From IMG/VR virus record IMGVR_UViG_3300030107_002332: a DNA stretch of 64,000 bases. One strand, written 5' to 3'. Under the pieces are notes generated by a model. The model did no database searches, was not told where the DNA came from, and was given only the letters and a program-made list of their open reading frames with translations. Positions 3,001 to 19,703 of this stretch are shown here, piece after piece. Position numbers and translations under genes: made by a program. Source of the stretch: a virus. The stretch's first letter is position 1; every line of letters starts with the position of its first letter.

Positions 3001-6000
3001 ACGTAAGTATGAGTAGTATCGAAGAATGAGTTTTGTACGTTAGTAGTATAAGAACCAATAGCATTTAAAACTGCACTATTATCTGACTTACCTTTATTAA
3101 GGTCAACAGATACAAGAATATTACCTTGAGGTATTACAGTAGCAGGTTGGGGAAGTTGATACTGGAAAGTATACTCGGAATCCCTTGATGTGACTAAGAA
3201 AGTTCCGTTATAGATTATTGGGTTAGCACCATATACAGTTACCTGATCTCCAACTAATAATCCATGAGGATTAGCACAAGTAAGAGTTGCAGATTGGTCA
3301 TTAACACCACCAAATGTTACAGTATTAACTGATATTAATTTTTTAACGTTATACAACCAAGTTGTAAGATCTGAAGTCGTACCAGTACCACCTAACTTAG
3401 AAACTGTTAATTTATCTCCAGGTAAGTAGTAAGATCCAGTATCTGTTAGATTAGTTTGCTGTGCATCAACAATACCAACAACATTCATTACAACTTCTTG
3501 TAATGTACCCTTATTCAGGTAAACTTTGAAGTTTGAAGTAACTTGTGTAGCAGAATCCCAATCTTCAACAACACCATTTACAGAACGAGTACATTCGATA
3601 AACTGGTTAAGTGATTTTTCCTTATATTGTACAACTTCTGTCGTAGTACCCGAACCAATAACAAACTCACCGTTCCTTTCTGGCCAACCAATGGTAGAGT
3701 CAACCGTAATAATAGAGTCGGTTGCACTCAATGGTTCAGCAAGTTTTGTCTTATATGGAACAGTAAATGAACCAGTAATAGTCTCTTCAGACAATACAAG
3801 TTCAAAAATTTCTACTTCAGACGTTTTAATTGAAATATAATTTTCTACAAGAGCACTCGCTGCTTTAATATTAGGGTCTGATATATCCTCTTCTTGTACT
3901 AATAAAGCATCTTTAATATCAACAGAATTACCAGAAACCTTAGTAGCACGAAGAATAGTATCAATAGACCAAGTAGCATCAGATGGTTTGATAATCTGAT
4001 CTTTTGGATAAGATATACTTACAGTTTCACCATAAAGTAACTTAAAGAGATAAGCAATACTAAAAGATGTACCCTTTGAAGAGTAGAAATCTTTAATAGT
4101 TTTAATTGCTGTACGAACGTCAATTTTCTTATAATCGAGTTCAGGTACATCAGGAAGGAACTGTTCTGTATATTTGTCTAAAAGTCTCTTTATAAACAGT
4201 TGGTCTAAGCACTTAACTGGAGTATTAACAGTAGCTGCAGCAGCAGTAGTTGCACTAGAGAAAACTGCATTACCATCTTCTGTATATGAAGTAATTCCTG
4301 AAGCAGCACGAGCACATCCTTCAAATTGTGCTTTAGTGTATTCTTTTCCTTCCTGTGTTACAGTAAAACCAGTAATTTCCTTTAAACCAATCTCAGCAGA
4401 TGCTTCTGCAGCAGGTGGAGTCTGAATAACGATAGTTGGAGGTGCAGCAGCAGTATAACCAGTTCCAAATGCAGTTATATTAATATCAGTGATTCTACCA
4501 TTGAATATTGCAGCAACAGCAGTTGCTCCAGTACCACCTATTGAATTTCCTTGTGCATCTACTCTTCCATCAACAATGTATACAGATGGAATATCCTCAT
4601 ATCCGCTACCACCATCTAAAAGTTCAATATTAATTACACGACCATCACCGTCAACAGACGTTTGAAGTATTTGAGCACCAACTGGATCAACAATAGCAAC
4701 CCTTGGAACTGTTGTATATCCTTGCCCTGCATTTAATACAGTAATTGAAGCAAGAGTACCGTCTGCAGCAAGGTTTGCACGTAATGATGCTTTAATAGGG
4801 TTAGTTCCTGTTGGTTCATCGACATATATGACTGGGGCAGTAGTATAACCAAATCCTACATTAGTAATGGTTGGAGCAGCTGCAAAAGAACCATTAGTAA
4901 TGGTTGGAGGATCAATTGTAGCACCTCCAGGCTGTCTAAATGTTAATCTTGGTGTAAATGTATATCCACTACCTGAATTAAGTATTTCAAGTCCACTTAC
5001 AGCACCATTAGTAACAGTTGCTTTAAGTTTTGCCTGTGTTGCACCTGGTTTAGTTGGTGATTGTACTTGAACTACTGGTGGGTTAGTGTCACTATAACCT
5101 TTACCACCATCTAATAGAGAAACTGATTTAACACCATTAACTAATGCATTAGCTGAAGCACCACTACCTAATACAGAACTAATAGTTACTTTAGGAGGAT
5201 ACTCAAATCTATATTCTGATCCATTAGTATCAGTCTCAATGCTGGTAAGAGTACCAGTATCACTAATACGTGCATATCCAATAGCACCAGCTCCAAATGA
5301 AGGTACAGGTGCCTCAATAGCATATAATGATAAGAATCTACCGTTTAAAGGGGCAGTTAAGAATATAAATTGATCTCCATCTATGAAGAAATCAACTTTA
5401 GGAACTAAAAGTCTATTATCATAAATTGCAATAACATATTCATCTACAATAGGTTCATACCTTTCAGCATTCTTTGTAATAGTAAATTGTCTCTTAGATT
5501 CACCAAAAGAATTAGATAAATTATCTATTGCTACAATTGGGTTTTCAATAAAACCACTTAAGAAATTAATATATGTCTGATCTGATCCATCTGAAGGAGT
5601 TCTTGTTCTTGGAGCCTCATTAAAGACGATATTAGTACCATTAATGGTATAATCAACAACAGGAACTAAAATTTTACCATAAACACTTACAATTAAGTGT
5701 TGTGGTGTTATAGGAGCAATAGGACTGTCTTGAGATGTTAAAGGAAACTGCGTTGTTGTTCCATCAAATGATAAAAGAGGACTTGCAAGACCTGTCCACT
5801 TAAGTTTTACCTGATCATATGAAATACCTGGACTTAATGCAATATTAGGTGCAGAAGTCGTCTTTTCATAGTAAATTATCTCATCACCAATTAATACAGA
5901 TCCATTATTATCAAGAAATTTATCAACACTCTCTACAACAATAGTATTATTCGTCGAATTTATTGCTTCTACAACTTTAGTCGAACCATCAAGTATCCCA

Positions 6001-19092: not shown

Positions 19093-19112
19093 GTAATACT
19101 CCTTATAAAATG

Positions 19113-19218
19113 TGTATGGAAGAGGTTCGATTTAAAGACTCTTTCCACCTGACCTATGCTAACTCGTTTACCGAGTCTAATTAAGATCAGGGATGGAGTC
19201 ACCCTTGCCTTCCATACA
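19113..19218 (-). ncRNA. Candidate structured RNA or 5-prime leader (about 105 nt)
   Basis: Perfect 10-bp closing stem TGTATGGAAG/CTTCCATACA, with nested stems GACTC/GAGTC, CCTGA/TCAGG and ACTCG/CGAGT; begins at the expected TSS of the 19222 promoter. Confidence 0.55.
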
Positions 19219-19221
19219 TGT

Positions 19222-19279
19222 ATTATAGCAATAAAAAACCCCCTGTAAAGGGGGTGTGTGTCAGTTTGTTGACTGTCCT
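19222..19279 (-). promoter_or_regulatory. Early promoter overlapping a terminator, with 22-bp box
   Basis: TTTACA (in the loop of hairpin CCCCC/GGGGG)-16 nt including a T6 tract-TATAAT; box at 19258-19279. Confidence 0.75.
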
Positions 19280-19703
19280 AGTTAAATGCTCTGTTGTATG
19301 AGGTTTTGATATAGTTAACAACAGTTGATGAATTCTCAACAACTAATTGATAACCTTTAACCAAATCCTTCCCTAATTCTTGTATCTCATACTCATGAAT
19401 TGCCCATCTGATTTTAACATCTTCAAGGTAATCTGCACGAGATAGTTTAGGTGAATTAGGACGAACTTTAACAGGTTGTTCACCTTTTGCTTCCACTTTT
19501 TTGTTTAACTCATTCATAACAACTGTTGCTGTAGATGGAGTATTTAGTGGAGTAACCTTTTTAGTGGGAGTATCAAGAACTTCTTGAATTTCCTTAATCA
19601 CTTTATCAACTTGTGCAGTTGATTTGGTTACTTTAGGTGAACTCTTACGAGTGCGAGTCTTACGAGGAGTTGTCTTCCTTGTTGTTGACTTAGCAACTGT
19701 CAT
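19278..19703 (-). CDS. Hypothetical protein with basic Thr/Lys-rich N-terminus (141 aa)
   Basis: Internal ATG (MTVAKSTTRK) of track ORF 19278..19751; it lies downstream of the 19732 promoter. Confidence 0.7.
   Translation of the reverse strand: MTVAKSTTRKTTPRKTRTRKSSPKVTKSTAQVDKVIKEIQEVLDTPTKKVTPLNTPSTATVVMNELNKKVEAKGEQPVKVRPNSPKLSRADYLEDVKIRWAIHEYEIQELGKDLVKGYQLVVENSSTVVNYIKTSYNRAFN

What the first reader, a model, noticed from the sequence alone, without database searches (positions are those of the whole stretch)
19113..19218. Highly structured RNA of about 105 nt at the start of an early transcript
Seen: an intergenic region closed by a perfect 10-bp inverted repeat (19113-19122 / 19209-19218) with nested stems GACUC/GAGUC, CCA-CCUGA/UCAGG-UGG and a terminal ACUCG-GUAAA-CGAGU hairpin. 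Its 5-prime end coincides with the TSS expected from the TATAAT at 19222-19227. It also encodes a 12-codon uORF (MEGKGDSIPDLN). I do not recognise the family. Inference: an early sRNA (protein decoy or anti-defence RNA) or a regulatory leader for the 105-aa gene.
Basis: seen in the sequence. Interest (0 to 1): 0.7.

Follow-up and report, generated by a model that had tools for sequence, protein, structure and literature searches.

The report
Conserved modular leader RNA of cyanophages
The flagged 106 bases are a real folded RNA at the start of an early message of an ocean cyanobacterial virus; it belongs to a family absent from Rfam 15, relatives keep its stems through matching double mutations, and its job is untested.

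Summary
On the minus strand, 19218 to 19113 folds into a nested rod (-40 kcal/mol, z = -4.97). It starts 3 nt after a strong sigma-70-type -10 box and ends 20 nt before the ATG of a DUF7717 gene.

It is a member of a conserved RNA family. I found 120 distinct copies in marine T4-like cyanophage contigs and in isolates P-RSM6, P-RSM1 and S-SSM5. Complete genomes carry one copy. No convincing copy turned up in 185,579 cellular genomes.

- **Core:** P1, then GGCANGGGU, then P2, then UUUAANNCGAACCUC, then P1'.
- **Covariation:** P1 and the base of P2 covary strongly (93.7% paired; score 0.606 against 0.137 shuffled, 0 of 500 shuffles as high).
- **P2 tip:** it is hypervariable. In the window it carries a second, independently conserved hairpin ("M3"), found in 74 contigs, mostly without the core.
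- **Known families:** no Rfam 15 family matches.
- **uORF:** the 12-codon uORF is not conserved.
- **Context:** the downstream gene differs between phages, and some copies lie in 3' UTRs. It is therefore not a gene-specific switch.

My best reading, at modest confidence, is an autonomous factor-binding and 5'-end-clamping module of early transcripts.

This scan has reported shuffled, uncatalogued leader RNAs in other cyanophage genomes. A sequence look-up found this core in no other window.

The parts
19238..19255 (-). Intrinsic-terminator hairpin of the upstream gene (ACCCCCUUUACAGGGGGU plus a U run); its loop holds the -35 hexamer
   Evidence: about 89% identical to intergenic cassettes in P-SSM2 and P-SSM5; PeSL-like arrangement
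19222..19249 (-). Sigma-70-type early promoter: TTTACA (19249-19244), 16-nt spacer with TG, TATAAT (19227-19222)
   Evidence: 11 of 12 matches. Across the family, 66 of 120 copies have a -10-like box ending 2-12 nt (mode 6) before P1
19113..19218 (-). The whole structured RNA element (106 nt)
   Evidence: 61-65 bits with the family models, E about 1e-16 to 1e-19; the only copy in the window
19209..19218 (-). P1, 5' strand (UGUAUGGAAG)
   Evidence: pairs with 19113-19122; 7 of 8 modelled P1 pairs show double compensatory changes in 101 sequences
19201..19208 (-). 5' half of the conserved core: GCAA bulge plus GGGU (family consensus GGCANGGGU, counting the last P1 G)
   Evidence: GGGU can pair with ACCU, but neither side varies, so the pairing is untestable
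19196..19200 (-). Base of P2, 5' strand (GACUC)
   Evidence: pairs with 19137-19141; all 4 modelled pairs covary (GC/AU/CG/UA types; 98.7% paired)
19149..19190 (-). M3 module, the tip of P2 in this phage: basal stem CUGAUC/GGUCAG, internal loop UUAAUUAG / UUAGCAUAG, stem ACUCG/CGAGU, pentaloop GUAAA
   Evidence: an independent motif in 74 viral contigs, mostly without the core; the basal and apical stems covary
19137..19141 (-). Base of P2, 3' strand (GAGUC)
19122..19136 (-). 3' half of the conserved core: UUUAAAUCGA bulge plus ACCUC (family consensus UUUAANNCGAACCUC)
19113..19122 (-). P1, 3' strand (CUUCCAUACA)
19093..19112 (-). 20-nt G-poor spacer holding the Shine-Dalgarno AAGGAG (19104-19099)
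   Evidence: In promoter-proximal relatives the next ORF also starts about 19-23 nt after P1
18775..19092 (-). Downstream gene, 105 aa, DUF7717 (function unknown)
   Evidence: PF24835, E = 3.5e-29; AlphaFold model pLDDT 88, with no significant fold match
19278..19703 (-). Upstream gene, 141 aa from the first ATG, with a Thr/Arg/Lys-rich N-terminus (TTRKTTPRKTRTRK). In many relatives its homologue lies directly downstream of the element instead

Best explanation
The 106 nt are an autonomous, self-closing RNA module transcribed as the first part of an early phage mRNA.

Shown:
- It belongs to a conserved family with a fixed architecture: a covarying closing helix P1; an invariant core of two opposed bulges (GCAN, and UUUAANNCGA) around a 4-bp GGGU/ACCU helix; and a covarying P2 whose tip is freely exchanged between phages.
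- In this phage the tip of P2 is the independently conserved M3 hairpin.
- Complete genomes hold one copy.

Inferred mechanism: transcription starts at the promoter at 19249-19222, so P1 ties up the 5' end of the message. This is the arrangement of a 5'-terminal stem-loop stabiliser against 5'-end-dependent decay by RNase E or RNase J. The rigid conserved internal-loop surface, and M3, would be docking sites for a conserved trans-acting factor. That factor could be a host protein or the Arg/Lys-rich early phage protein that is often encoded next door. It would set the stability, processing or translation of the early transcript. The G-poor 20-nt spacer leaves the ribosome-binding site open.

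The module acts wherever it is placed in a transcript (5' leader here, 3' UTR in some relatives). It does not act as a switch for one particular gene.
For: - **Fold:** z = -4.97.
- **Covariation:** in 101 distinct sequences, 93.7% of cells are paired against 66.8% shuffled; the covariation score is 0.606 against 0.137 (0 of 500 shuffles as high); slid controls give 0.15 or less.
- **Strand:** G-U pairs occur in the inner P1 and P2 pairs but A-C never does, which fixes the RNA strand.
- **Start of P1:** it begins 2-12 nt (mode 6) after a -10-like box in 66 of 120 copies.
- **Distance to the ORF:** the next ORF starts about 19-23 nt after P1 in those copies.
- **Downstream genes:** they are diverse (DUF7717, a basic protein, DUF7249, DUF6267, DUF1281_C and others).
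- **Other positions:** some copies sit 17-24 nt after a stop codon and 31-36 nt before a terminator; one contig has tandem copies.
- **Copy number:** one copy in each of four complete genomes, and one in the window.
- **Expression platform:** I saw no alternative pairing with the ribosome-binding site or with a terminator.
- **Basic-protein gene:** a gene with a basic N-terminus is the nearest neighbour in 8-16% of loci, against 1% of all ORFs.
- **M3:** it is conserved on its own, with covarying stems.
Against: - No transcript data: the start site, the stability effect and any bound factor are all inferred.
- A plain stabiliser would not need about 25 invariant nucleotides, so the core must do something more specific that I could not identify.
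- The 3' UTR copies cannot clamp a 5' end unless the RNA is processed.
- One copy per genome is odd for a general mRNA-protection device.
- The invariance of the core in my set is partly imposed by the search patterns used.
- The link with the basic-protein gene holds in a minority of loci and may only reflect conserved gene order near the helicase gene.
Confidence: 0.4

Rival explanations
1. It is a free-standing functional RNA that acts in trans, as a decoy or sponge for a host or defence protein, or as a self-assembling RNA like manA. It is merely carried in UTRs and released by processing.
For: - The module is self-closing and position-independent: 5' UTR, 3' UTR and tandem.
- One copy per genome, like a dedicated RNA gene.
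- In L010, L024 and L028 it forms a 150-230-nt structured block that ends at a terminator.
- The bulge holds the self-complementary words UUAA and usually UCGA.
- manA, another cyanophage UTR motif, forms RNA-only cages in vitro according to a 2026 preprint.
Against: - In the window there is no terminator or recognisable processing site between the element and the ORF.
- The self-complementary words are only 4 nt, and UCGA is lost in 21 of 120 copies.
- There is no expression or abundance data.
Confidence: 0.25
2. The M3 tip is a boxB-like hairpin bound by the arginine-rich early protein encoded next door. This would give lambda N/nut-style antitermination of early transcription, or autoregulation of that protein.
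For: - The M3 apex is a 5-bp stem with a GYAAA pentaloop (GNRNA type), just downstream of an early promoter.
- Genes for proteins with a T/R/K-rich N-terminus lie next to core or M3 elements 8-16 times more often than the 1% background.
- In the window that gene is immediately upstream.
Against: - Most core copies carry other P2 tips with no such pentaloop.
- I saw no boxA-like sequence.
- Adjacency holds in a minority of loci.
- The similarity to boxB is by inspection only, and the protein has no family match.
Confidence: 0.12
3. It is a small self-cleaving ribozyme or a dedicated RNase processing signal that cuts the early transcript at the conserved bulge.
For: The conservation pattern is that of small ribozymes: about 25 invariant nucleotides in junctions, covarying helices, an optional stem of variable length, varied genomic contexts and tandem copies.
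Against: No match to any ribozyme family of Rfam 15, even at E <= 10, on the window copy and on the minimal form. No biochemical data.
Confidence: 0.1
4. It is a riboswitch aptamer for a small molecule that controls the downstream gene.
For: A compact minimal form of about 50 nt, with a closing P1 and conserved junction nucleotides, in a 5' UTR. manA and wcaG are orphan riboswitch candidates in the same phages.
Against: - No expression platform. P1 ends about 20 nt before the start codon, with no alternative pairing.
- Terminators after the 3' UTR copies are separated from the element and do not overlap it.
- The downstream genes share no pathway.
Confidence: 0.08
5. It is a DNA-level feature (a MITE-like inverted-repeat insert or a recombination cassette), or a short coding uORF, and not an RNA structure.
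For: - A 19-nt imperfect inverted repeat reaches into the promoter DNA.
- The same promoter plus P1 flanks carry different P2 tips and different downstream genes in L006, L009 and the window, so recombination acts here.
- Databases annotate ORFs over the element.
Against: - One copy per genome.
- Strand-specific G-U pairs, and compensatory changes in internal helices.
- No conserved reading frame or start codon.
Confidence: 0.04

Closest known systems
manA (RF01745) and wcaG (RF01761) RNA motifs of T4-like cyanophages (Weinberg et al. 2010, PMC2864571)
   Same: Orphan, covariation-supported structured RNAs found almost only in marine T4-like cyanophages and marine metagenomes, usually in 5' UTRs of assorted genes, with no known ligand or partner.
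   Different: No sequence or structure match: cmscan found neither family in the window nor in 15 related loci. The core and architecture differ. This element also occurs in 3' UTRs and carries a swappable P2 tip.
5'-terminal stem-loop mRNA stabilisers (such as the E. coli ompA leader; from general knowledge)
   Same: The helix begins at or within a few nucleotides of the predicted +1, and is followed by an unstructured ribosome-binding region.
   Different: Such stabilisers need no conserved sequence. Here about 25 nucleotides in the internal loops are fixed across very divergent phages, and some copies are not at a 5' end.
Lambda nut site (boxA + boxB) with N protein
   Same: A promoter-proximal RNA hairpin with a 5-bp stem and a GNRNA-type pentaloop (the M3 apex), and a small early protein with an arginine-rich N-terminus encoded nearby.
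   Different: No boxA. The pentaloop hairpin is only one of many interchangeable P2 tips. The protein has no detectable relation to N. No evidence for antitermination.
PeSL cassettes of T4-type phages (Arbiol et al. 2010, PMC2839356)
   Same: The terminator hairpin fused to a strong early promoter just upstream (19255-19222) has this layout. It lies in a plastic early region where modules are shuffled.
   Different: A PeSL is the promoter-terminator DNA cassette. The element studied here is the transcribed RNA downstream of it, with its own conserved fold.

Membership tests
Any Rfam 15 family (including manA, wcaG, glnA, PhotoRC-II, abiF, and the hammerhead, twister, pistol, hatchet and HDV ribozymes) | Covariance-model score at or above the family's gathering threshold | tested here: not met
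   - Nothing at the gathering threshold in the 64-kb window or in 15 related loci.
- At E <= 10, only chance-level hits of 19 bits or less on the window copy and on the minimal form.
New family defined here (core GGCANGGGU / UUUAANNCGAACCUC) | Both core halves in order, enclosed by a paired P1 and enclosing a paired P2 | tested here: met
   The window copy scores 61.4 bits (model R1) and 65.2 bits (R2, E = 4e-19). P1 is 10 bp and the base of P2 is 5 bp.
New family defined here | Helices supported by compensatory changes | tested here: met
   7 of 8 P1 pairs and 4 of 4 P2 pairs have changes on both sides; score 0.606 against 0.137 shuffled. The middle GGGU/ACCU helix never varies, so it is untested.
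Riboswitch | Aptamer coupled to an expression platform (a terminator/antiterminator pair, or SD sequestration) | tested here: not met
   By inspection of about 120 contexts, I saw no pairing that competes with P1. The ribosome-binding site is 20 nt away, and terminators, where present, do not overlap the element.
Riboswitch | Ligand binding | not testable with these tools
   Needs in-line probing or ITC.
Lambda-type nut/N antitermination | boxB: short stem with a GNRNA pentaloop, downstream of an early promoter | tested here: inconclusive
   The M3 apex is ACUCG-GUAAA-CGAGU, and the family loop is GYAAA in 39 of 40 copies. This is resemblance by inspection only.
Lambda-type nut/N antitermination | boxA element and an N-family protein | tested here: not met
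   I saw no boxA-like word in the element. The neighbouring basic protein has no Pfam or PHROG function match.
MITE or other mobile DNA insert | Many dispersed copies with terminal inverted repeats | tested here: not met
   One copy in the window and one in each of four complete genomes. The pairing pattern is specific to the RNA strand.
5'-terminal stem-loop stabiliser | Helix starts at the transcript's 5' end | tested here: inconclusive
   Predicted only from the spacing between the -10 box and P1 (3 nt in the window; mode 6 nt in the family). There is no mapped 5' end.
PeSL cassette (for the upstream promoter/terminator) | Strong sigma-70-like promoter fused to a terminator stem-loop in a plastic early region | tested here: met
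   (promoter 11 of 12; terminator hairpin plus a T run). The cassette recurs in P-SSM2, P-SSM5 and AG-345-L05. Definition taken.

The most novel reading that the evidence does not exclude
The invariant core is a new small functional RNA fold in its own right: a catalytic RNA, a ligand sensor, or, like manA in a recent preprint, a unit that assembles into RNA-only oligomers. Cyanomyoviruses would carry it once per genome and decorate it with exchangeable protein- or RNA-binding tips such as M3. The early region of these phages would then hold a toolkit of undescribed RNA devices.
Probability: 0.15. Interest if true: 0.85.

Novelty: new variant of a known kind. Interest (0 to 1): 0.62.

Why it matters
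T4-like cyanophages are among the most abundant viruses in the ocean, and how they control their early genes is poorly understood. They lack the MotA/AsiA system of T4.

- This RNA is fixed in about 25 positions across phages of both Prochlorococcus and Synechococcus.
- It is present once per genome.
- I found it in no RNA catalogue or paper available to me.
- Public genome records annotate it over as "hypothetical protein".
- It is built from modules that phages swap.

Together with manA and wcaG, this suggests a largely unexplored layer of RNA-based function in these viruses. Three cultured isolates carry it (P-RSM6, P-RSM1, S-SSM5), so the question can be tested directly.

Tried and rejected
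- **Rfam searches** of the window, the minimal form and 15 related loci found nothing.
- **tRNA or tmRNA:** none in the window.
- **uORF:** rejected. Most members lack the ATG, and insert lengths break any common frame.
- **Kink-turn, T-loop and sarcin-ricin readings of the core:** I checked these by hand against the consensus rules, recalled from memory. The required G-A pairs or U...A positions are not conserved, so I dropped them.
- **SRP RNA:** a 9-nt identity to E. coli 4.5S RNA, recalled from memory, was treated as chance. SRP RNA was not among the Rfam hits.
- **Pairing between variable core positions:** I looked for pairing between the N of GGCAN and the NN of the bulge and found no association.
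- **Cellular homologues:** the scan gave 3 hits. One lies in a 194-kb contig labelled as a Synechococcus MAG, part of which resembles phage S-CAM1. One lies inside a Chloroflexus response-regulator gene. One lies in a Bacteroides stretch that looks coding and lacks a convincing P1. The last two I take as chance.
- **blastn of two short family members** against phage isolates found nothing; the queries are too short.
- **DUF7717 structure:** a confident model (pLDDT 88), but no significant fold match, so no clue to an RNA-binding partner.
- **Literature:** I searched for this motif and found nothing. The supplement of the paper reporting 10,000 viral structured-RNA candidates is not held, so prior detection there cannot be excluded.
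- **Not done:** the metagenome scan, and phylogenetic profiling across all Kyanoviridae genomes.

Full report
**Setting.** The window is from a T4-like cyanophage (Kyanoviridae). blastn of the region hits only Prochlorococcus and Synechococcus myoviruses and marine viral single-cell records. An IMG/VR record shares 59% of the window's sampled 31-letter words and holds an identical copy of the element. Around 19 kb all plausible genes run on the minus strand.

The order on that strand is:
- a 141-aa gene with a Thr/Arg/Lys-rich N-terminus (19703-19278);
- a terminator hairpin (19255-19238) whose loop and tail hold a promoter, TTTACA-16-TATAAT with an upstream TG, 11 of 12 matches (19249-19222);
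- the flagged 106 nt (19218-19113);
- a 20-nt spacer with AAGGAG;
- a 105-aa DUF7717 gene (19092-18775).

**Observation.** RNAfold of the minus-strand RNA gives exactly the nested rod: -40 kcal/mol, z = -4.97, none of 200 shuffles as stable. The complementary strand is weaker at z = -3.14. A 10-bp inverted repeat alone would mean little, because 91 such pairs lie within 120 nt of each other in the window. The evidence is the nesting and what relatives show.

**Relatives and architecture.** blastn found partial matches in P-RSM6, P-RSM1 and P-TIM68. These showed two conserved sequence blocks flanking variable helices.
- An exact-pattern scan of IMG/VR with the 3' block gave 33 contigs. Of these, 30 also had the 5' block.
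- Two gapped scans requiring both blocks brought the total to 158 loci and 120 distinct elements.
- The architecture is P1 (usually 4-9 bp, sequence free), then GGCANGGGU, then P2, then UUUAANNCGAACCUC, then P1'.
- The stretch between the two conserved blocks (P2 with its tip) runs from 17 nt, giving a minimal element of about 50 nt, to 78 nt.
- The P2 tip is built from recurring, interchangeable hairpin modules.

A covariance model built from 11 short members scored the window copy at 61 bits. It also found two copies missed by the first scan, one of them a tandem second copy.

On 101 distinct sequences aligned to the model:
- 93.7% of cells form standard pairs, against 66.8% after shuffling.
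- The covariation score is 0.606 against 0.137, and 0 of 500 shuffles reach it.
- Sliding the partners by 1-3 columns drops the score to 0.15 or less.
- 7 of 8 P1 pairs and all 4 basal P2 pairs show double changes.
- G-U pairs occur at inner pairs but A-C never does, so the pairing is read on this strand, as RNA.
- The short middle helix GGGU/ACCU never varies and remains a prediction.

One caveat applies. The invariance of the two blocks in this set is partly imposed by my search patterns. However, the first scan required only the 3' block and still recovered the 5' block in 30 of 33 hits.

**The window's P2.** Compensatory changes appear in the CUGAUC/GGUCAG stem and in the apical stem.

That tip, which I call M3, has:
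- a 5-bp basal stem;
- an internal loop UUAAUUAG / UUAGCAUAG;
- the stem ACUNN/NNAGU;
- the pentaloop GYAAA.

M3 is a conserved motif in its own right. A pattern scan found it in 74 viral contigs. Only five also hold the complete core, and in one of these (L084) M3 lies outside the core element. The rest place M3 inside other leader RNAs that also start at early promoters. Its basal pairs 1-3 are paired in 44 of 44 distinct copies with several pair types, and the apical pairs switch among UA/GC, GC/AU, UG/CG and CG/GC. The window RNA is therefore a composite of two conserved modules.

**Distribution.**
- Model R2, with filters off, finds one copy in the 64-kb window (65.2 bits). The next-best hit scores 8.7 bits.
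- Complete genomes of P-RSM6, P-RSM1 and S-SSM5, plus a further 181-kb record, have exactly one copy each. P-TIM68 has none, only an M3 hairpin.
- A scan of one genome per prokaryote species (185,579 genomes) gave three hits. One is a 194-kb contig labelled as a Synechococcus MAG, part of which resembles phage S-CAM1. One lies inside a response-regulator gene. One lies in a stretch that looks coding, with no convincing P1. I take the last two as chance.
- The family therefore appears to be restricted to phages.

**Known families.** Rfam 15 has nothing: not in the window at gathering thresholds, not at E <= 10 on the element or the minimal form, and not in 15 related loci. The known cyanophage RNAs (manA, wcaG, glnA, PhotoRC-II, CfrI) are therefore not what this is. 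GenBank annotates "hypothetical protein" CDSs over the element in P-RSM6 and S-SSM5. No reading frame is conserved, so these calls are probably spurious or over-extended.

**Context.**
- In about 55% of copies P1 begins 2-12 nt (mode 6) after a -10-like box, mostly strong forms such as TATAAT or TATTAT.
- In those copies the next ORF starts about 19-23 nt after P1. The window is of this type.
- The downstream genes are diverse: DUF7717, proteins with a basic N-terminus, DUF7249, DUF6267 (which carries a ligase-like KxDG motif), DUF1281_C and several without any family.
- The remaining copies are nested in, or follow, another recurrent motif. This is a helix with the internal loop CAU / NGUAAGU.
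- Those copies lie 17-24 nt after the stop codon of an upstream ORF and often 31-36 nt before an intrinsic terminator, which is a 3' UTR position.
- I saw no alternative pairing that would link the element to a ribosome-binding site or to those terminators.

This argues against a classical riboswitch and against a leader dedicated to the 105-aa gene. The promoter and P1 sequences of the window recur in L006 and L009 with different P2 tips and different downstream genes. Recombination therefore shuffles both, as described for PeSL cassettes in other T4-type phages.

**Mechanism.** What is shown is a conserved, covarying, strand-specific RNA fold, present once per genome and placed at the head of an early transcription unit here. 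What follows is inference.

The best-supported reading has three parts:
- It is an autonomous module whose closing helix ties up the 5' end of the message, the layout of 5'-terminal stabilisers.
- Its fixed internal-loop surface and its M3 tip are docking sites for a conserved factor.
- The G-poor spacer leaves the start site open.

Candidate factors are a host protein or the Arg/Lys-rich early protein. The gene for that protein is the nearest neighbour in 8-16% of loci, against 1% of ORFs in general. This may be no more than conserved gene order near the helicase gene.

The M3 apex resembles lambda boxB (a 5-bp stem with a GNRNA pentaloop). That makes an N/nut-like reading worth testing, but most family members carry other tips.

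Several rivals cannot be excluded without experiments: a trans-acting or self-assembling RNA, a ribozyme or processing signal, and a riboswitch. manA, the best-known cyanophage UTR motif, has just been reported to form RNA-only cages in vitro. The structure of the downstream DUF7717 protein was modelled with confidence but matched no known fold, so it gave no hint.

**Earlier notes of this scan.** The same stretch was noted once more as a rod-like leader. Several follow-ups on other cyanophage genomes describe "modular folded leader RNAs" built from uncatalogued, shuffled and nested blocks, with function unknown. My results agree with that picture. They add one precisely defined core family and the M3 module. 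A sequence look-up found this core in no other window.

**Verdict.** The feature is real: a new RNA family of the same general kind as manA and wcaG. It is well supported by covariation, and its function is open.

Noticed in passing
window 19149-19190 (-); L002 about 1497-1540; L167 about 155-200; L168 about 163-205; loci L169-L237: The M3 hairpin is an independent conserved motif in 74 viral contigs. It has the internal loop UUAAUUAG / UUAGCAUAG, the stem ACUNN/NNAGU and the pentaloop GYAAA. Mostly it sits inside a different, larger conserved leader RNA (...ACUACUCUGACA-M3-...AAGAAGCAGAGACAUGA...) that also starts at early promoters. Neither the two M3-bearing loci I searched (L002, L084) nor M3 in the window matched any Rfam family.
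   Followed up: partly
L010 7445-7350 (-); L024 6280-6165 (-); L089, L078, L113, L131 and others around the core: A second uncatalogued motif: a helix with the internal loop 5' CAU (or CGU) / 3' NGUAAGU (or AUAAGU). It either encloses the core element or stands beside it with other inserts, often in 3' UTRs just before terminators. The window itself has no significant copy.
   Followed up: partly
window 19222-19255 (-): Terminator hairpin and early promoter fused in one cassette, with the -35 hexamer in the hairpin loop. It is about 89% identical to intergenic cassettes in P-SSM2, P-SSM5 and AG-345-L05. The layout is that of PeSL cassettes.
   Followed up: partly
P-RSM6 CPXG_00171 (L001 1509-1859) and S-SSM5 SSSM5_057 (L166 2424-2618): The annotated 'hypothetical protein' CDSs start inside or run across the RNA element. 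They begin at the conserved GUG of GGGUGA, which follows an SD-like GGAGG of P1. They are probably spurious or over-extended calls.
   Followed up: partly
window 19278-19703 (-) and homologues in L025, L033, L008, L001 and L014: A family of small early proteins with a Thr/Arg/Lys-rich N-terminus (TTPRKRRTRK and similar) and variable C-termini. They have no Pfam or PHROG function and are repeatedly encoded next to the structured leaders.
   Followed up: partly
L016, L017, L018 and L022, just 3' of the core element: The sequence CUAAUCCCCUUUGGUAGUUUCAGGAUUAGGGGCGAUAGGAAACUACC can form an H-type pseudoknot (CUAAUCC/GGAUUAG and GGUAGUUUC/GGAAACUACC). It is conserved in four contigs.
   Followed up: no
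L170 about 5640-5760 (-): A leader that keeps the 5' core block (GAGGCAAGGGU) and M3 but lacks the 3' block UUUAANNCGAACCUC. It is either a diverged core or a recombinant.
   Followed up: no
L019, L031 and L034 (first scan): Three contigs carry GGAAACANGUCUUUAAAUCGAACCUCCAC without the 5' core block, in what I take, without checking, to be coding sequence. This is either chance or a remnant.
   Followed up: no
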